This document shows, piece by piece, positions 14,085 to 58,663 of a DNA stretch of 64,000 nucleotides. Each line of letters begins with the position of its first letter. The first letter of the stretch is position 1. The position numbers and the translations under genes were made by a program. This stretch comes from a virus: IMG/VR virus record IMGVR_UViG_3300045988_076522; one strand, given 5' to 3'. The notes beneath the pieces were generated by a model that was not told where the DNA came from, did no database searches, and was given only the letters and a program-made list of their open reading frames with translations.

Positions 14085-14726
14085 TTACTTGCGACCTAGA
14101 CCATTATAGAAATCAAGTATTGCATTCTCTTTACGAAGCCAAGTAGCCTGTTCTTTAGCCATATCAAGAATAGTACGACTAATAGATTCTTCTTCTACTT
14201 GCTCTTTAACTAACATACCTTCATCCTCATCCTCTCCATTCAACCATTGGAATGTAGCCCAATCACTCTCTTTTTGAGCTTGGTCTACAATCTTATTAAT
14301 ACCACGAGTAGTCTCAATCTCCCTATCTACTGTGGCAGCAAAGGGCATGACTCTATCAGTGATTTCAACATTAATGGCTGGAACAGGCGGATATTGGAAC
14401 AGAGCATCGTTAGTGGTTAGATATTCAAATATCCAAGAATGATGCAAATATTCTTCCTTAGCACGACCTCTCCAGTAAATACCTAGCTTTGGTAAACCCT
14501 CTACTTCAAAGTAATTGGCAAAGGTCATATACAGAGCATGGTTGGCAAGTTCGGCTGACATCTGTTTTACCAACATCTCAACCATTACAGTTGATAGTGG
14601 GCAAACACGTCTAGACTTATCAATCACCTGCTCTGTATACTTCATAGTAGGTTCAGCGCCTACGGTTTGAACTCCTTCGCTTGTCTTCTCCTGTATTGGA
14701 TTTCCGTCTTTGTCTAGCATTCTCAC
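14085..14726 (-). CDS. Ferritin-like protein
   Basis: QMSAELANHALYMTFANYFE and KEEYLHHSWIFEYL resemble ferritin helix A (E...Y) and the EExxH ferroxidase motif. The protein has extra N- and C-terminal extensions. Confidence 0.4.
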   Translation of the reverse strand: MRMLDKDGNPIQEKTSEGVQTVGAEPTMKYTEQVIDKSRRVCPLSTVMVEMLVKQMSAELANHALYMTFANYFEVEGLPKLGIYWRGRAKEEYLHHSWIFEYLTTNDALFQYPPVPAINVEITDRVMPFAATVDREIETTRGINKIVDQAQKESDWATFQWLNGEDEDEGMLVKEQVEEESISRTILDMAKEQATWLRKENAILDFYNGLGRK

Positions 14727-19916: not shown

Positions 19917-20855
19917 TTATAGCATTAAATTGTTAATACGTTTATATTCTTCAAACACTTTGTCCTCTGATTCTTCTCCCCACATACTGTGAATGAGAAT
20001 ACCATAAGCACAAGGCTGGTACACAATAGGGTCTACTGCCTTCTTAGTGATTGTAACCTCTGGATTGTTTAATTGACTAGGAGGGCAAGCTACAAATAGC
20101 TCATTTCTACCTATCTTAACAGCATCAAAGGAAACTATGTTAGGGTAGCTAAAAGCCTTTACATCAGCAGGAAGGCCGGGATTCTTGTTAATTATACTAG
20201 ACAGCCTGAGTGTGCCTTCTGTATCAGGGCCAATAACTATGTGATTGTGTGATTCTATGTATTTCTTCAGATTGTTCAACATAGTTTCACTGTCACTGTA
20301 TCCGTAGTTAATACCTGTAACATAATAATATGCCCCATTAGCATACTCCAACCCTAAATCAGAGAACATTGGTCCTTCACCATTAAGTTTACGCTTAACT
20401 TCTAAGATTTCTCTAATATTACGGTCAGGAATCACTCCAGTGTACTGTTTTAGTAGACCTTTGACAAGTTTATACTTCTTACAAACATCATCAAATTGTT
20501 TAGAACCAACTAGAAGAGTACTCTCTCCGAACACTTCTCTTGCACGCTTTACGAAACTAAACAAGTTCTTAGCGCGCATGGCATCCAGAGCTATCTGATT
20601 ATATTCCGATATTTTAGCTTGCAATAACCTAGCATTCTTTGAGCTGCCCAGTCCAGCATCAACCAACGTGTTGTATTCTCTTACTAATGTATCTCTATTA
20701 GGAATATCAACTGATGTCTTGGAAACAGAACGTAGATATTCCTCCATACATAAAGCAAGAGCCATAGCTATGTTGGACTGAATAGTCATCACCGGCACGT
20801 CAACCACTTCTGGAGTTATAACTTCAGAATCATTGCGTTTTAGAAATCTAAACAT
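19917..20855 (-). CDS. Paralog-family protein A (unknown function; C-terminal motif IHSMWGEESEDKVFEEYKR)
   Basis: Shares AGLG(S/G)(S/T)KNA, a G/Y-rich middle and the SMWGEE C-terminus with 28373..29224 and with the decayed copy at 22871..23745. Confidence 0.55.
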   Translation of the reverse strand: MFRFLKRNDSEVITPEVVDVPVMTIQSNIAMALALCMEEYLRSVSKTSVDIPNRDTLVREYNTLVDAGLGSSKNARLLQAKISEYNQIALDAMRAKNLFSFVKRAREVFGESTLLVGSKQFDDVCKKYKLVKGLLKQYTGVIPDRNIREILEVKRKLNGEGPMFSDLGLEYANGAYYYVTGINYGYSDSETMLNNLKKYIESHNHIVIGPDTEGTLRLSSIINKNPGLPADVKAFSYPNIVSFDAVKIGRNELFVACPPSQLNNPEVTITKKAVDPIVYQPCAYGILIHSMWGEESEDKVFEEYKRINNLML

Positions 20856-22867
20856 CAGAAATTGACTTTTAAAGTTCTACTAAATGTTCCGTCCACTTTA
20901 ACAATAACGGAATTACGCATAGTAGATGAGAACCCTAATCCACTCAATTGATGTTCTTGGTAAGGAGTCTTCATCTTATCAGCTAGAACCTCAAATACCT
21001 TACGGTGAGGAGTTAGCTCACTGTTAAGATATTCGTTAAAGAATCCACGAACAGGCTCCGGATTCTTGCAATCATCCAACATAAAGAAGTAATGTTTATT
21101 GCCAATACCCTGCTCATCCCAATAATTGGGAGACAGCATCATCACGTTCACCTTATGGAACTTGTTAGTATCAATATTCCATAGGCTTACTGACGAATGG
21201 CTAGTACTGGGTATTAGCTCTCTTATTTGGATACCTTTAGATTTACTGTAAGTAATCTCGGCAACCATGACATTCTCTTTATGTTTAACGGGTTTGTCAT
21301 AGACAAATTGTCGAACTTCTCCATTGTGTTCTATTTCCAATGTAAATCCTGTATCAACAGATTCTCTACAATGAAAGTTATTGACATACACAACATACTT
21401 ACCTTCAAGCATCTTGCGTTCGTTAACCCATATGATGTTCTCAACGGGTTTGCGAGTTTTGCCATATCCAGCATTTTCATCCACGTCTAGCTTACCACCA
21501 CTTCTGCCGATTCTGTTGGAGTAATAAATTTCAAGATTATTAGGTTCAACGACATGCAAATCCAAGTCATCATAGTTAGACCATGCCAACGAACATCTTA
21601 AGAATCCTTCAGTCTGACCACCAGCAGCTCTTACTTTCTCTTTAATAGAATCAGCTACTCCTCCATTATATGTCCAAGCAAAGTTGTTTGGCCATTTAAA
21701 TAGATTCTTAGCATCCTTATTAACAGGAGCTGTAAGAGTTACTAAGTTATTAGACAGCCTACTCTCCATTAACACTTCTATGTTAGTGGCAGTGGGTACC
21801 ACATTAGCAATGAAATCATCAATGCTAATTTCAGTTAACTTGTCAAACTTCTTAGGATTAACTTTAGTGTCTGCGGCCAGTTCCTCGAATATGTTTCCGG
21901 CCATTACCTTCTTGGCATCACGGTTAGCGAATATAACATTGTTGACTGTTATATCCTCTAAAGCAGCATGTCTACGAGGTAGAGAATCCATAAGACCTAG
22001 TTCCTGCACTTTCTTCTGTGCTTCCTCAATCATTCTTTTAGTAACAATTGACTTAGGTCTTTGATAGTTCTCTGGAGCCATGATACGTTCGTATGCAGTC
22101 ACACAATCGTCCAATTCAAGTCCTGATGATATATTTACCAACAATGTACCAATTGCCGTATTACGAATGCGTGCACATCCTACACGATTGAAGTTTGCCC
22201 AACACCAGTTGTCTTTCTCTTCATCAGGTAATGAATCATAGTATCTTTTATGACCCAGGAATACACTTAAGTCATTTTTAAACTGTTCTCCTCTATATAA
22301 AGCATTCTGACCTATTAAGTCCAGAACTGTTTCTATAGAATCGATAGTTAATTCCTCCAGTGCACGTTTGAACACTTCCTTAGTTGTGCGTAAAGTCCCC
22401 ATTACAGCAGATACGGATTCAGTTCCTGTATACACCAATTGATTTGGCATATGATAGTAAAGATGATTCCAGGTAATTACTTTAGGGCCTTGCAAACTGT
22501 CAATATAGACATTGTTTCTATCAATTCCTAGTTCATAATCACGAGTGATAAAAACATCTACAACTGGTTTTGATTTCACTAATGCATCGAGATTTCTAGC
22601 TACAGTAGCATAAGGTTCATCCAACTGTAGGTTCTCCCACATGGTTACTACTTTATTGTCTTTAATGGCGACAACTCTACCATAATGTCTGATATAATGT
22701 TTACAATTGTTGCAATTATGAGACTGTCTCTCTTCCTCCGGAAAGGAATTAAGATAACAATCCCATAATGCATCCTTGTCTACATTAGTCAGAAAGAGCA
22801 TGTCTGCACCAGCAGCTAGTTGATTAAACTGCGCATGGACTGCTCTTTTAAACTTGACAAATTCCAT
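20855..22867 (-). CDS. Large hypothetical protein (670 aa)
   Basis: Long uninterrupted ORF. N-terminal HNCNNCKHY Cys/His cluster. No confident motif. Confidence 0.55.
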   Translation of the reverse strand: MEFVKFKRAVHAQFNQLAAGADMLFLTNVDKDALWDCYLNSFPEEERQSHNCNNCKHYIRHYGRVVAIKDNKVVTMWENLQLDEPYATVARNLDALVKSKPVVDVFITRDYELGIDRNNVYIDSLQGPKVITWNHLYYHMPNQLVYTGTESVSAVMGTLRTTKEVFKRALEELTIDSIETVLDLIGQNALYRGEQFKNDLSVFLGHKRYYDSLPDEEKDNWCWANFNRVGCARIRNTAIGTLLVNISSGLELDDCVTAYERIMAPENYQRPKSIVTKRMIEEAQKKVQELGLMDSLPRRHAALEDITVNNVIFANRDAKKVMAGNIFEELAADTKVNPKKFDKLTEISIDDFIANVVPTATNIEVLMESRLSNNLVTLTAPVNKDAKNLFKWPNNFAWTYNGGVADSIKEKVRAAGGQTEGFLRCSLAWSNYDDLDLHVVEPNNLEIYYSNRIGRSGGKLDVDENAGYGKTRKPVENIIWVNERKMLEGKYVVYVNNFHCRESVDTGFTLEIEHNGEVRQFVYDKPVKHKENVMVAEITYSKSKGIQIRELIPSTSHSSVSLWNIDTNKFHKVNVMMLSPNYWDEQGIGNKHYFFMLDDCKNPEPVRGFFNEYLNSELTPHRKVFEVLADKMKTPYQEHQLSGLGFSSTMRNSVIVKVDGTFSRTLKVNF

Positions 22868-32197: not shown

Positions 32198-33265
32198 CTA
32201 AACTAACTTATCGAATATCATGGGCTGTATCGACATCCATAAATTTGCTAGCATTTCTCGCTCTGCGTCAGATGCTTCATCCCAATGTGATACGTACAAT
32301 TTCTCCGTTCGTTCATTCCTATAAGGAACCTTAAATGAACGGTTAATGCGTACACTGTGTGCGAATAGGTCTTTGTCGAAATCAATAGCCCTAAGCGTCT
32401 TCTGGAAATCGTTGAACTTATTATTAGGGTCATCGACATCCCTAACAGACATTCCAGAAGGAAACGGGCCGTTACCATGCCTTGTTATATAAGGACGAGT
32501 TACATAACAAGTTTGGATTTCTTTACGTATACCTGCTTTCCGCAACAGCTCGTAAGCGTTTTGTGAAGTTGTATTAGACGGAGTACAATAAGGCATTATG
32601 CCGAATCTTTGGTCAAGCAATATTCCCTGTGAACCTTCAAACACTAGGTTATCATAATTCAACAAGCAATCTTCATTAACCGTACCTGTATGTAAGAAAT
32701 AAGCATGTGCTAACCTACACCAGTTGTCTAGGTCTATCGAAGGATATTTACTAGACATGTTGTAATAGTTATCCACTATGGCATTTAGTTTCTCACGCAG
32801 TATGTAAGGATTCATACAATCTACAACTGTTAAGCTGTATCCTGCCTTAACTCGGTCCAAACAAGCTTTAAACCCTGTACCTACAGTACCATGTCGTAAG
32901 TTCTCTTCGTTATTAACTTGGGAATAGACATCGAAGGGAATTACAACTTGGCAGTGAGGGTGATACTGAACAATGGGATGAACTCCCATTTTAGCTAAGT
33001 CTGCACCCTCCAACATAGAGGTAATTGGGTCTACAGTACAGTATTCGGACCAGTACGTCGGCACTCCAAGTAAGGTTCCGCTGCCAAAGTTACTAAAGGT
33101 GTGCATCATGTCTCCATGCTTTACAGTATGTCCTACTTGATGTCCACCACTAAACCTGACCACTAACACAGACTCTCGCTTACCTATGTACTTGTTACAT
33201 AAGTTGTGAACTGTCTGTCCCTTACCTTCGTCTCCAAAGAATGTTCCTAATACAATACTAATCAT
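32198..33265 (-). CDS. Adenylosuccinate synthetase homolog (PurA/PurZ family), short form
   Basis: P-loop IVLGTFFGDEGKGQ. VVRFSGGHQVGHTV corresponds to the PurA RFQGGHNAGHTV segment. HGTVGTGFKAC corresponds to TTKRGIGP. At 355 aa it is shorter than bacterial PurA (~430 aa). Confidence 0.6.
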   Translation of the reverse strand: MISIVLGTFFGDEGKGQTVHNLCNKYIGKRESVLVVRFSGGHQVGHTVKHGDMMHTFSNFGSGTLLGVPTYWSEYCTVDPITSMLEGADLAKMGVHPIVQYHPHCQVVIPFDVYSQVNNEENLRHGTVGTGFKACLDRVKAGYSLTVVDCMNPYILREKLNAIVDNYYNMSSKYPSIDLDNWCRLAHAYFLHTGTVNEDCLLNYDNLVFEGSQGILLDQRFGIMPYCTPSNTTSQNAYELLRKAGIRKEIQTCYVTRPYITRHGNGPFPSGMSVRDVDDPNNKFNDFQKTLRAIDFDKDLFAHSVRINRSFKVPYRNERTEKLYVSHWDEASDAEREMLANLWMSIQPMIFDKLV

Positions 33266-54766: not shown

Positions 54767-55107
54767 AATTAATCTAATGAGTTACCTATACACTCACGAG
54801 GTTTTAGTGAAACGTTAATAAAGAACTAATTAGTTTCAGTCTATTGACTTACTTATAGCATCGCCACGTAAAGGCTTAGTCATGATGCCGCTCCCATCAC
54901 GGGAGAATGAATAATTTTAACTTACTGTATTTATTAATTTAAATTCAAACAATTTCATCTTCCTGTGCCACTATACTTTGAGTTGTTCCCTACAGAACTT
55001 TATCCACTTCTTATCCTTTCTATAATTATATGCATGAGTGTCCTTCTCTCCAAGAGTAACTATCTTAATCTCTAAAATAGTTACTTCCTCTTTATCAATA
55101 TGAATTA

Positions 55108-55308
55108 TCATTTTGTGGGATTGTAGATGAAACTTTCCTGTTCTTCAAATGTGATTTTAATGTGTTGCACACGCCAGTTTGCTGTTGAATGCATTACATC
55201 TTGTTGATATTTCACATGAGAGATTGCCTCTTCTCTAGTGTTATAACAACGCACAAATCTTTCATCTGTAGATACCCACCAACCCGATTGAATATTTAAT
55301 GGATTCAT
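55108..55308 (-). CDS. Hypothetical protein
   Basis: 66-aa ORF. Confidence 0.35.
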   Translation of the reverse strand: MNPLNIQSGWWVSTDERFVRCYNTREEAISHVKYQQDVMHSTANWRVQHIKITFEEQESFIYNPTK

Positions 55309-57269: not shown

Positions 57270-57752
57270 TTATTCCTTGCAATATGCAATGACATTTACG
57301 TTCATTTGGCTGCCGTCCCTTGCGACGCTTTCAAACGTTTCTATCGCCTTTGCGGTTACTTCCGTACCTTGTAAATCTGCAAGACATTCCGCTATTGTCT
57401 TATTTTCAAACATATTGAAAATACATTTGTCTTTGTCCGCCTCTGGGAGAATGTCAACCGGTGTAATACGCTTGTTGTTTTCACGGTCGTTGAAAGACCG
57501 GAACAAAGAATTGATAGACACGTTTCTTGCCGTTCCGTTAACCTCTACGGCAACTTGAAAGAATGTATTACCGTTTACAACTCCCTTTGTGATTGTTCCG
57601 TTAAATTCGTTAATTTCAGCGGGAAACTTCAATTTGTCGCCTACCTTGATAGAATCAGGATTCACACCTAAGCGGTTTAAAGCCGCTGCAATTTCGTTTT
57701 TGCTTGCTTTCGGTAACTTCTTGTTAACTTCTTGTAATTCTGCTAAATTCAT
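57270..57752 (-). CDS. Hypothetical protein (first gene of the leftward block)
   Basis: 160-aa ORF. The divergent regulatory region lies upstream. Confidence 0.5.
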   Translation of the reverse strand: MNLAELQEVNKKLPKASKNEIAAALNRLGVNPDSIKVGDKLKFPAEINEFNGTITKGVVNGNTFFQVAVEVNGTARNVSINSLFRSFNDRENNKRITPVDILPEADKDKCIFNMFENKTIAECLADLQGTEVTAKAIETFESVARDGSQMNVNVIAYCKE

Positions 57753-57959
57753 AGTTTAATAATTTATTAGTGAAACAATATAGAACGAGCTTATTTGCTC
57801 GTTCTGATTAGCTTTTAAATTAGGTTTGCTTTAATTTCTTCACATTCTTCACGTGTGATTATACAACGCGTAGCATTAACTAAAACATAACCGTTTGAAA
57901 GATAAGTAAACATAACTCTAATAATTTTAAAATGAATATTATAAAGCAAAACCAAATGA

Positions 57960-58300
57960 TATAAATCTTTTGATTTTCTCCAAACATGGGTGAGGGGTGT
58001 GAAGGGTAACACGACTGTCGTATCCGCAATATACACAAATCTTGCAATATTCACCCAGCATCCGAGTTGGCAATATATAATATGACAACCCACCCCGGGA
58101 GTGGGAGGGGTGTGATTTTGAGCACCCGTACTTGTAAGTTGGCAATATATATTAATTTCTATTCATCTTACTAATTGCAAGCAAGCCCCGAAGGGGCGCA
58201 GATTGCCACAGCACGTCATGAAGTTCCGAGTTGGCAATATACTTAATATTAACTGTGAATTTGAGTTGGCAATATATAATATATATTAATAATTATATTA
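57960..58300. promoter_or_regulatory. Divergent intergenic control region: four copies of GAGTTGGCAATATA interleaved with GC hairpins
   Basis: Motif copies at about 58062, 58136, 58228 and 58264 (CCGAGTTGGCAATATATAATATG, GTAAGTTGGCAATATATATTAAT, CCGAGTTGGCAATATACTTAATA, TTGAGTTGGCAATATATAATATA). Hairpins CACCCCgggagtgggaGGGGTG (58091-58115) and GCCCCgaaGGGGC (58186-58198). The strand switch occurs here. Confidence 0.5.
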
Positions 58301-58408
58301 CCATTTGGTAATATTGAAATATATAACTAATTTTGTATTGTCAAATTAAATAATAATATATTTGCGAACTTAAATCAGAATTATTAACAATAACTAAAAT
58401 TTATAACA

Positions 58409-58663
58409 ATGGCTAAAGAAGTTAAAGACTTAACAAGTAAAGAAGTAGATGAAGTAAAAATATTAAAGACTAGTTTGTCAGAATGTCCAGTAAATACTGA
58501 TTTAGGATGTAATGAATCAAAGGCAACTAACTGGGTGAAGTTAGACAATAAAACAACAGATGTAAAATTAGAATTATTAAATAAATTGCAAGACGGACTA
58601 GCTAATGGAGCTGGTATTGAATATTTAATGCAACTATCTTGCATTTATAATAACATTCGCTAA
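58409..58663 (+). CDS. Hypothetical protein
   Basis: First plus-strand ORF after the control region. 84 aa. Confidence 0.5.
   Translation: MAKEVKDLTSKEVDEVKILKTSLSECPVNTDLGCNESKATNWVKLDNKTTDVKLELLNKLQDGLANGAGIEYLMQLSCIYNNIR

What the first reader, a model, noticed from the sequence alone, without database searches (positions are those of the whole stretch)
57960..58300. Four GAGTTGGCAATATA repeats alternating with GC-rich hairpins at the leftward/rightward transcription divide
The only higher-order repeat structure in the window sits exactly where gene orientation flips. The 14-nt core, extended to CCGAGTTGGCAATATA in two copies, occurs four times within 230 bp. A partial GCAATATA copy lies nearby at about 58038. 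Two strong hairpins, CACCCC-N10-GGGGTG and GCCCC-GAA-GGGGC, sit between copies. The repeats could be phage-specific promoters, for example for a phage-encoded RNAP. They could also be iterons of an origin or binding sites for a transcriptional regulator.
Basis: seen in the sequence. Interest (0 to 1): 0.6.

Follow-up and report, generated by a model that had tools for sequence, protein, structure and literature searches.

The report
Conserved repeat-and-hairpin control region, probable origin
The four repeats and two hairpins are real and belong to a strongly conserved non-coding hub between the two divergent gene arms of an abundant, uncultured ~175-kb human-gut phage; it looks most like a replication origin or protein-binding control region, not a set of phage promoters.

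Summary
Four same-strand copies of (G/A)AGTTGGCAATATA lie at 58064, 58136, 58228 and 58263. Two GC hairpins lie between them, exactly at the leftward/rightward gene divide. The motif occurs nowhere else in the window, and nowhere else in relatives' contigs of up to 147 kb.

The window is an uncultured gut phage of about 172-186 kb, probably with a Bacteroidota host. In lineages whose flanking proteins are only 31-61% identical, blocks of this spacer stay nearly identical. Hairpin H2 (58177-58206) keeps 11 pairs through three independent compensatory changes. It always sits 18 nt upstream of repeat R3.

The repeats belong to a box family (core GG-N1-2-ATATA). Its number, spacing and sequence vary between lineages. 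In some strains it forms head-to-tail arrays with an 18- or 22-nt period and at least 8 copies. Canonical host-type promoters (TTTG / TAnnTTTG) flank the region separately and are conserved.

The 150 bp to the right is the least stable duplex in 64 kb, and the cumulative GC-skew minimum falls at 58096.

Best reading (about 0.4): an iteron-type protein-binding array plus structured elements and an unwinding region, that is, an origin. Rivals are a rightward structured RNA and an operator array. Function was not shown.

The parts
57953..57984 (-). Candidate leftward host-type promoter P_L: -33 TTTG (57984-57981), a 19-nt gap, then -7-like TAtcaTTTG (57961-57953)
   Evidence: Sequence. The block is conserved in all lineages, and lineage B has an exact TAtcTTTG. 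Promoter activity is inferred, not shown.
57989..58012 (+). Invariant G-box block GGTGAGGGGTGTGAAGGGTAACAC (two tandem GTGAGGGGT-like boxes plus GTAACAC)
   Evidence: Present in every lineage A-F. The pattern found 65 metagenome contigs. Function unknown.
58026..58061 (+).
   Evidence: The same unit is expanded to at least 8 or at least 5 head-to-tail copies in L344 and L312. Other lineages carry 22-nt units in 6-8 copies at this position.
58064..58081 (+). R1: GAGTTGGCAATATATAAT
   Evidence: Invariant in lineage A. GTGTT(T/A)GCAATATATAAT in lineage B. Absent at this position in C and D.
58089..58119 (+). H1: C-run (CCCACCCC) pairing with G-runs, with the conserved G-box GAGTGGGAGGGGTGTGA and a T-run (58116-58119)
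   Evidence: The 3' G-rich half is conserved as sequence. The 5' C-arm and the loop length vary but stay complementary. The T-run is present in lineages A, C and D but not in B.
58136..58153 (+). R2: AAGTTGGCAATATATATT
   Evidence: Its equivalents in B, C and D (TTGGAATATAAC, ACGGAATATAAC, TTGGTATATAAC) keep a 33-34-nt distance to H2.
58177..58206 (+). H2: conserved stem-loop. Outer stem GCAA/TTGC, then GC/GC, then inner stem GCCCC/GGGGC, with a G-N-A triloop and bulges WA and AGA
   Evidence: 11 pairs, 100% of cells paired, 3 pairs with compensatory changes, and 32-45% paired when the partners are slid. A covariance model finds one copy per genome region. No Rfam match.
58228..58245 (+). R3: GAGTTGGCAATATACTTA, the most conserved box
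   Evidence: Always 18 nt after H2, although the spacer sequence varies, in 51 of 52 distinct full-length versions.
58263..58280 (+). R4: GAGTTGGCAATATATAAT
   Evidence: Present in lineages A and C and absent in B and D.
58271..58420 (.). TA-rich stretch, the least stable duplex of the whole window (candidate unwinding element). It contains the near-palindrome ATATTACCA-TT-TGGTAATAT (58296-58315)
   Evidence: ranks first at the 60-, 100- and 150-bp scales. Its sequence varies between lineages but its AT-richness is kept.
58304..58364 (+). Two overlapping host-type promoters for the rightward genes: TTTG-N20-TAATTTTG (58304-58335) and TTTG-N21-TATATTTG (58332-58364)
   Evidence: The TAAnTTTG box at 58328-58335 is invariant in lineages A-D. 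The consensus is taken from PMC7366714. Activity is inferred.

Best explanation
Proposed function. The 320 bp between the two divergent host-type promoters is a cis-acting DNA control region, most probably the phage's replication origin.

Proposed mechanism. The GAGTTGGCAATATA repeats are iteron-type binding sites (core GG-N1-2-ATATA, all in one orientation) for a phage-encoded sequence-specific DNA-binding protein that has not been identified. Loading of that protein next to the TA-rich stretch at 58271-58420 would open the duplex. Replication, like transcription, would then proceed outward along both gene arms. The GC hairpins (H1, and above all H2, which sits at a fixed 18 nt from R3) would be structural or recognition elements of the same machine. 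They would form on the top strand once it is single-stranded, or in a rightward transcript that helps priming.

What is shown: the repeats, their restriction to this locus, their conservation, their variable copy number and tandem expansion, the base-pairing constraint on H2, the fixed spacings, the stability minimum and the skew minimum.

What is inferred: protein binding, unwinding and origin function.
For: 1. Restriction to this locus. The motif is significant and occurs only here in the window. It occurs only in this one stretch in relatives' contigs of up to 147 kb.

2. Strong purifying selection. The flanking proteins are 31-61% identical between lineages A and B-D. The flanking DNA is unalignable, yet blocks of the spacer are nearly identical.

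3. Iteron-like behaviour. The boxes share one orientation. Their number, spacing and sequence vary between lineages: 4 exact cores in A, and 0-1 exact cores plus about 6 loose boxes in B-D. The same box family forms head-to-tail arrays with an 18-nt period (at least 8 copies) or a 22-nt period (6-8 copies) in other strains.

4. Unwinding region. The adjacent 58271-58420 is the least stable duplex in 64 kb at three scales. Its sequence drifts but its AT-richness is kept.

5. Position. The cumulative GC-skew minimum is at 58096, and all genes diverge from here.

6. Promoters lie elsewhere. The promoters that fit the probable host consensus are separate from the repeats and are themselves conserved (PMC7366714).

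7. Structure and spacing. H2 pairing is maintained by three independent compensatory changes. The R2-H2 and H2-R3 distances are fixed while the spacer sequence varies.
Against: - The primase and helicase genes lie 47-53 kb away.
- R1-R4 are irregularly spaced (72, 92 and 35 bp), not in the regular roughly 22-bp register of classical iterons.
- Box variants differ by 1-nt indels between GG and ATATA, which is awkward for a single rigid binding site.
- There are no DnaA boxes.
- The GC-skew switch is equally well explained by gene orientation alone.
- AT-rich DNA upstream of promoters is ordinary in an AT-rich phage.
- G.T wobbles in H3 (G.T in lineages C and D) and in one H1 variant (L329), and the G-N-A loop of H2, point to folding of the top strand, which would fit an RNA as well.
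- In some lineages an HNH endonuclease gene replaces the left tandem array, so that part is dispensable.
Confidence: 0.4

Rival explanations
1. The region is transcribed rightward into one or more small structured non-coding RNAs or a structured leader. H1 plus its T-run would act as a terminator or attenuator. H2, and H3 in lineages B-D, would be RNA stem-loops. The R boxes would be either specialised promoters for a phage-modified or phage-encoded polymerase, or repeated RNA motifs such as binding sites for a protein. This reading could coexist with the origin reading if the transcript primes replication, as in ColE1 RNA II, lactococcal phage c2 ori, T7 and T4 origins.
For: - H2 covaries. 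H3 shows 2 compensatory changes plus a G.U that pairs only on the + strand.
- An H1 variant (L329) has a + strand U.G.
- The H2 loop keeps G-N-A on the + strand.
- All R boxes point rightward.
- The R2-to-H2 distance is fixed, and the sequence between them is partly conserved (CTTAYTAATTG).
- A T-run follows H1 in 3 of 4 lineages.
- In the Bacteroidota phage phi14:2, long intergenic regions are among the most highly transcribed early regions (bioRxiv 10.1101/2020.03.07.982082).
Against: - No host-type promoter lies on the + strand inside the region.
- The R boxes match neither TAnnTTTG nor a sigma-70 -35/-10 arrangement, except that R4 can be read as a -35.
- Tandem 18-22-nt arrays of the box family make no sense as promoters.
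- An R1-to-H1 RNA would be only about 30 nt.
- H2 has no T-run.
- The overall fold of the 321 nt is no better than shuffles (z +0.17).
- No Rfam family matches.
- The T-run after H1 is missing in lineage B.
Confidence: 0.25
2. The R boxes are operators for a phage transcription factor that switches the two divergent host-type promoters (P_L and P_R) on or off during the infection programme. This would be a nucleoprotein complex over the divergent promoter region, comparable to phi29 p4/p6 at the A2c/A2b/A3 promoters. The hairpins would be incidental terminators or insulators.
For: - The array lies exactly between conserved divergent promoters.
- R4 ends 24 bp upstream of the -33 element of P_R1, and the truncated boxes approach P_L.
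- The near-palindrome 58296-58315 overlaps the -33 of P_R1.
- The motif is confined to this locus.
- The copy number is variable.
Against: - It does not explain the covariation of H2 or its fixed spacing to R3.
- Most boxes lie 60-300 bp from either promoter.
- No candidate regulator was found in the neighbouring genes.
- The boxes are asymmetric direct repeats rather than palindromic operators.
Confidence: 0.2
3. The region is the packaging recognition site or a physical genome end (cos, pac or a terminal-repeat boundary). The R boxes would be terminase small-subunit binding sites.
For: - Contig ends are strongly enriched here. 31 of 65 metagenome contigs end inside the region, including 4 of 15 contigs longer than 100 kb.
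- Several IMG/VR and Logan contigs end here too.
Against: - The ends are scattered over the whole region rather than falling at one nucleotide.
- They fall inside tandem-repeat arrays, in copy-number-polymorphic units, or in the TA-rich stretch. Three such contigs also carry Nextera adapter sequence at their right-hand ends.
- Most large contigs span the region.
- No terminase gene is adjacent.
Confidence: 0.05

Closest known systems
Iteron-type replication origins of phages and plasmids (ori-lambda, P1 oriR, RK2 oriV, SPP1 oriL)
   Same: Several direct repeats of 14-22 bp in one orientation lie next to an easily melted AT-rich stretch. Repeat number and sequence vary between relatives. The motif is confined to the locus. 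Some strains have tandem arrays with an 18-22-bp period.
   Different: R1-R4 are dispersed (35-92 bp apart) and interleaved with conserved, covarying hairpins. The region is intergenic, not inside or beside a recognisable initiator gene. No initiator is known and there are no DnaA boxes.
Transcription-primed phage origins (T7 primary origin: tandem promoters plus an AT-rich region; T4 oriF/oriG; lactococcal phage c2 ori with an untranslated transcript; ColE1 RNA II)
   Same: A non-coding region lies at a transcription divide, with repeated promoter-like elements, structured sequence with G-rich blocks and an adjacent AT-rich stretch. There are hints that the top strand folds. (Comparison from my own knowledge of these systems.)
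   Different: No transcript has been demonstrated. The R boxes do not match any promoter class known for the probable host. No phage RNA polymerase is known for this phage.
Phage N4 virion-RNA-polymerase hairpin promoters
   Same: The H2 inner element is a 5-bp stem with a 3-nt loop on one strand, located upstream of early-looking small genes.
   Different: The central loop base is A, C or T in relatives (N4 needs a purine). H2 is part of a larger 11-bp bulged helix. There is only one copy. No N4-like polymerase is in evidence.
phi29 p4/p6 nucleoprotein switch at divergent early/late promoters
   Same: Multiple protein-binding sites lie in the spacer between divergent promoters and control a temporal switch.
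   Different: The sequences and proteins are unrelated. This comparison does not account for the covarying hairpin.

Membership tests
Iteron-type origin | Three or more direct repeats of about 17-22 bp in the same orientation | tested here: met
   Four 14-18-nt copies on the + strand. Tandem arrays with an 18- or 22-nt period occur in relatives.
Iteron-type origin | Adjacent AT-rich DNA-unwinding element | tested here: met
   58271-58420 is the least stable duplex in 64 kb at the 60-, 100- and 150-bp scales. Actual unwinding was not tested.
Iteron-type origin | Regular, helically phased spacing of the iterons | tested here: not met
   Start-to-start spacings are 72, 92 and 35 bp. Only the truncated units and the arrays in relatives are regular.
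Iteron-type origin | A cognate initiator protein that binds the repeats, usually encoded nearby | tested here: inconclusive
   The neighbouring ORFs have no Pfam or PHROG assignment. The conserved 160-aa neighbour has no significant fold match. Binding cannot be tested with these tools.
Iteron-type origin | Autonomous or measurable origin activity | not testable with these tools
   This needs marker-frequency data, 2-D gels or origin cloning.
Bacteroidota sigma-A promoter (-33 TTTG / -7 TAnnTTTG) | A TAnnTTTG box with TTTG 17-23 nt upstream | tested here: not met
   No R box contains it on either strand. The pattern does occur at 58304-58335 and 58332-58364, outside the repeats. The consensus is from PMC7366714.
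Sigma-70-type promoter | TTGACA-like and TATAAT-like hexamers 16-18 bp apart | tested here: not met
   The scan gives 11 sites against 12.9 expected. Only R4 scores, when read as a -35 (TTGGCA-16-AATAAT). R1-R3 do not score.
Phage-polymerase promoter set | The same motif recurs upstream of other transcription units of the genome | tested here: not met
   There are no further copies in the window. Relatives' contigs of up to 147 kb hold only this one stretch.
Intrinsic terminator | A GC-rich stem followed directly by a T-run | tested here: inconclusive
   H1 is followed by TGATTTTG in lineages A, C and D but not in B, and the scanner does not call it. H2 has no T-run in any lineage.
N4-type hairpin promoter | A 5-7-bp stem and a 3-nt loop with a central purine | tested here: not met
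   The loop is GAA, GCA or GTA in relatives.
Known RNA family (Rfam 15) | A match at or near the gathering score | tested here: not met
   Best E-values are about 1 and far below the gathering scores. ARAGORN finds no tRNA in the region in lineages B-D.
CRISPR-repeat mimic (RNA anti-CRISPR) | Similarity to a host CRISPR repeat that occurs in arrays | tested here: inconclusive
   A genome scan for paired GCCCCGNAGGGGC hairpins found no array-like loci among the rows returned. Bacteroidales hits were two-copy elements.
cos/pac or terminal-repeat boundary | Contig or read ends at one fixed coordinate | tested here: not met
   Contig ends are enriched but scattered from 5 to 473 nt after the G-box block. 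They fall in tandem arrays or TA-rich DNA. No read-level data were available.

The most novel reading that the evidence does not exclude
The spacer encodes, or acts through, a previously undescribed structured nucleic-acid element of an abundant gut phage group. It would combine G-box blocks, the covarying H2 and H3 hairpins, and R boxes at fixed distances. One version is a rightward priming RNA for replication, with ColE1 RNA II or mitochondrial CSB-like logic, in which G-rich blocks stall or anchor the transcript next to the AT-rich stretch. Another version is a repeat-bearing decoy RNA that titrates a host factor.
Probability: 0.15. Interest if true: 0.7.

Novelty: new variant of a known kind. 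Interest (0 to 1): 0.45.

Why it matters
This phage group is common in human-gut metagenomes. One 90% cluster of the neighbouring protein alone holds 3,480 sequences. The group has no cultured or GenBank relative. Its most conserved non-coding element would be the natural handle for finding its origin of replication and its early control circuit, for designing replicons or reporters in its (probably Bacteroidota) host, and for tracking strains through the hypervariable tandem arrays. If H2 and H3 act in RNA, they would define a new phage RNA family. In practical terms, the region is an assembly-breaking hotspot that explains why many near-complete contigs of this phage end here.

Tried and rejected
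- GenBank phages. Megablast, blastn and tblastn against GenBank phages gave no relatives of the region or its neighbouring gene.
- Known RNA families. Rfam and tRNA searches were negative.
- Literature. A text search for the motif returned only unrelated primer sequences.
- Sigma-54 and DnaA-box readings. The -12 GC element is absent, by inspection. There are no DnaA boxes in the region.
- Coding potential. Frames are broken by 1-nt indels between strains.
- Long-range pairing of ATTGCCA (the 3' flank of H2) with the R3 core, proposed by RNAalifold. I rejected it because lineages B and D break it, whereas the local outer stem covaries perfectly.
- Physical-terminus idea based on contig ends. 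I rejected it after seeing that the ends fall in tandem arrays and TA-rich DNA.
- Neighbouring 160-aa protein. Structure prediction gave a confident model (pLDDT 83) but no informative fold match.
- Pfam on 20 further ORFs. The only hit was one ferritin-like domain, so no initiator or sigma candidate emerged.
- CRISPR-mimic test by genome scan. Uninformative.

Full report
**1. What is in the sequence**

Between the last leftward ORFs (160 aa at 57270-57752, plus a 32-aa ORF at 57815-57913) and the first rightward ORF (58409-58663) lies a non-coding spacer of about 500 bp.

The repeats are as described:
- GAGTTGGCAATATA is exact at 58064, 58228 and 58263.
- AAGTTGGCAATATA lies at 58136.
- All four are on the + strand, with start-to-start spacings of 72, 92 and 35 bp.

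At up to 2 mismatches the window has 6 hits against 0.71 expected, and no shuffle out of 100 reaches 6. The two other hits are 2-mismatch background. In register, the copies continue as TATAAT, TATATT, TATACT and TATAAT.

Two truncated copies (GCAATATA at 58026 and GCAATATT at 58044) are two 18-nt tandem units.

- CACCCC-N10-GGGGTG at 58091-58112.
- GCCCC-GAA-GGGGC at 58185-58197.

Taken singly, they fold only modestly better than shuffles (z -1.3 and -2.2). The whole 321 nt does not fold better than shuffles at all (z +0.17).

The only other local repeat family in the window lies inside a 653-aa ORF.

**2. What the window is**

The window has about 37% G+C and 29 tRNA genes. It carries primase, DnaB-like helicase and exonuclease genes, all on the - strand up to 57.9 kb. 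After that come small ORFs with no matches, on the + strand.

It has no nucleotide relatives among 50,697 GenBank phage records, and the neighbouring gene has none either.

Relatives are plentiful in human-gut metagenomes:
- About 25 IMG/VR contigs and 65 metagenome contigs were found.
- Contig sizes cluster at 172-186 kb.
- One 90% cluster of the neighbouring protein holds 3,480 sequences.

Only 9 of 105 ORFs have a Shine-Dalgarno-like sequence. The Bacteroidota promoter pattern TTTG-N17-23-TAnnTTTG occurs upstream of several genes (consensus from PMC7366714). A Bacteroidota host is therefore inferred, not shown.

**3. Promoters are at the edges, not in the repeats**

Two overlapping full-consensus promoters sit at 58304-58335 and 58332-58364 (+), just upstream of the first rightward gene. 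A near-consensus promoter sits at 57984-57953 (-). Their key boxes are conserved in all lineages. For example, TAAnTTTG at 58328-58335 is invariant.

The R boxes contain no TAnnTTTG on either strand. They also have no sigma-70-like partner hexamer, except that R4 can be read as a -35.

**4. Comparative evidence**

Using the neighbouring 160-aa protein and conserved blocks, I recovered several lineages of the same syntenic spacer:
- Lineage A: the window and its close relatives.
- A': neighbouring protein 80-88% identical.
- B: 47% identical.
- C: 58% identical.
- D: 57% identical.
- Partial E and F.

Between A and B the surrounding proteins are 31-61% identical, yet the spacer keeps nearly identical blocks:
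- The P_L region.
- The G-box block GGTGAGGGGTGTnAnGGGTAACAC.
- H1 with a second G-box.
- GCACC(C)GTAC.
- CTTAYTAATTG followed by H2.
- R3.
- The P_R boxes.

Lineages B-D have an extra module of about 250 bp with another hairpin, H3.

Conservation of the boxes is as follows:
- R1-R4 are invariant within lineage A. In 52 distinct full-length versions, nearly all lineage-A versions carry 4 exact cores.
- Lineages B-D carry 0-1 exact core plus about 6 looser boxes, such as TTGGAATATAA, ACGGCATATAA and CTGGTATATAA.
- The family core is therefore GG-N1-2-ATATA preceded by GA(G/A).
- R1 is missing in C and D. R4 is missing in B and D. R3 is present in every lineage.

**5. H2 is a real structure**

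On nine distinct sequences, an 11-bp bulged helix with a G-N-A triloop is 100% paired. The helix consists of GCAA/TTGC, GC/GC and GCCCC/GGGGC.

Three pairs changed on both sides in three independent events:
- GCAG/CTGC in lineage B.
- GCGA/TCGC in lineage D.
- GCTCC/GGAGC in L150.

There are no one-sided changes. With the partners slid, only 32-45% of cells pair.

RNAalifold's alternative, ATTGCCA pairing with the R3 core, is broken in B and D.

The distance from H2 to R3 is 18 nt in 51 of 52 distinct full-length versions, although that spacer's sequence varies freely. The distance from R2 to H2 is 33-34 nt. A covariance model finds exactly one copy per genome region and none elsewhere in the window.

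H3 changes from TGCCG-ATTT-CGGCA to GGCCA-TTTT-TGGTC. That is two compensatory changes plus a G.T that pairs only on the top strand.

H1 keeps its G-rich 3' half as sequence. Its C-rich arm and its loop length vary while staying complementary. One variant has a top-strand T.G.

**6. The box family is hypervariable**

Right after the G-box block, strains differ by tandem expansion:
- At least 8 copies of GCAATATACACAAATCTT (L344).
- At least 5 copies of GCAATATTCACAAATCTT (L312).
- 6-8 copies of a roughly 22-nt unit, ACTACTGTCGTATTCGAGATAT (L343, L307).
- Other tandem units in other strains.

Some lineages carry an HNH-type endonuclease gene there instead.

This explains why 31 of 65 metagenome contigs end inside the region, including 4 of 15 contigs longer than 100 kb. 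The ends are scattered and lie in arrays or in the TA-rich stretch. Three such contigs also carry adapter sequence at their right-hand ends. I therefore read them as assembly breaks, not as genome termini.

**7. Physical context**

58271-58420 is the least stable duplex of the 64 kb at the 60-, 100- and 150-bp scales. The cumulative GC-skew minimum is at 58096. There are no DnaA boxes in the region.

**8. Interpretation**

The promoter-set reading fails on four counts:
- The motif occurs only at this locus.
- It does not match the host consensus.
- Separate conserved promoters exist at both edges.
- The box family forms tandem arrays.

The anatomy comprises one-orientation, copy-number-variable boxes, fixed box-to-hairpin distances and an adjacent melting-prone stretch at the divergence point of both gene arms and at the skew minimum. 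It is best explained by a protein-binding (iteron-type) array of a replication origin (about 0.4).

A rightward structured RNA (about 0.25) is the main rival and could coexist with an origin as a priming transcript. It is supported by the top-strand wobble pairs, the G-N-A loop and the T-run after H1. It is weakened by the absence of any recognisable promoter.

An operator array for the divergent promoters (about 0.2) explains the position but not H2. A packaging site is unlikely (about 0.05).

No binding protein was found. The conserved 160-aa neighbour gives a confident model but no fold match.

**9. Verdict**

The feature is real, strongly conserved and previously undescribed. Its general kind is familiar: a phage non-coding control or origin region with iterons. 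The interleaved, covarying hairpins at fixed distances are the unusual part. Function remains inferred.

Noticed in passing
window 17991-51605, especially 44072-44144 (-): There are 29 tRNA genes on the - strand. One has a CUA anticodon, which ARAGORN labels 'Pyl'. It is an amber-suppressor tRNA and hints at TAG recoding of some (late?) genes.
   Followed up: no
window 32198-33265 (-): An ORF matches phrog_1211, a PurZ-type adenylosuccinate-synthetase-like family, at E 1.6e-46. This raises the possibility of 2-aminoadenine-substituted DNA.
   Followed up: no
window 20855-22867 (-): A 670-aa ORF of unknown function (phrog_1735) is about 46-50% identical to ORFs in more than 500 large phages of Bacillus, Serratia, Salmonella and Klebsiella. 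This contrasts with the lack of matches for most other ORFs tested.
   Followed up: no
L346 (rc) and L359, between the G-box block and H1: Some relatives carry a gene of about 300 aa inserted in the spacer. Its C-terminal motif (PSIDR(I/V)DS.KGYTKDN) looks to me like an HNH-type homing endonuclease, judged by eye and not scanned against a library. It replaces the tandem array.
   Followed up: partly
window 54971-55308 compared with L017 2462-2796: Two small ORFs are 100% identical in protein between lineages A and B, while neighbouring genes are 31-47% identical. This suggests recent exchange between lineages.
   Followed up: no
L206, L214, L218, L233, L240, L243, L257, L263 (Bacteroidales/Prevotella MAGs): These MAGs carry repeated elements made of GCCCCGNAGGGGC, followed in most copies by G(A/G)CA..., and in most loci by a second hairpin. 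The first hairpin has the same stem and G-N-A loop as H2. Whether the two are related is unknown.
   Followed up: partly
L338, L365, L314 (contig ends inside the spacer): The Nextera adapter sequence CTGTCTCTTATACACATCT is fused to phage sequence at the right-hand ends of these contigs, inside the spacer. This is untrimmed adapter, an assembly artefact.
   Followed up: yes
window 37443-38005 (-): A repeat with a 21-33-nt period lies inside the 653-aa ORF, which has a weak 'lipoprotein' PHROG match. It is a coding repeat.
   Followed up: no
window 57781-57806: A strong bidirectional terminator-like hairpin, GAACGAGC-N6-GCTCGTTC, lies between the 32-aa ORF and the 160-aa gene. A full-consensus TTTG...TAggTTTG pattern at 57794-57828 (+) points rightward, antisense to the small ORF.
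   Followed up: no
window 14085-14726 (-): An ORF carries a ferritin-like domain (PF00210, E 4.5e-13). It was the only Pfam hit among the 20 ORFs scanned.
   Followed up: no
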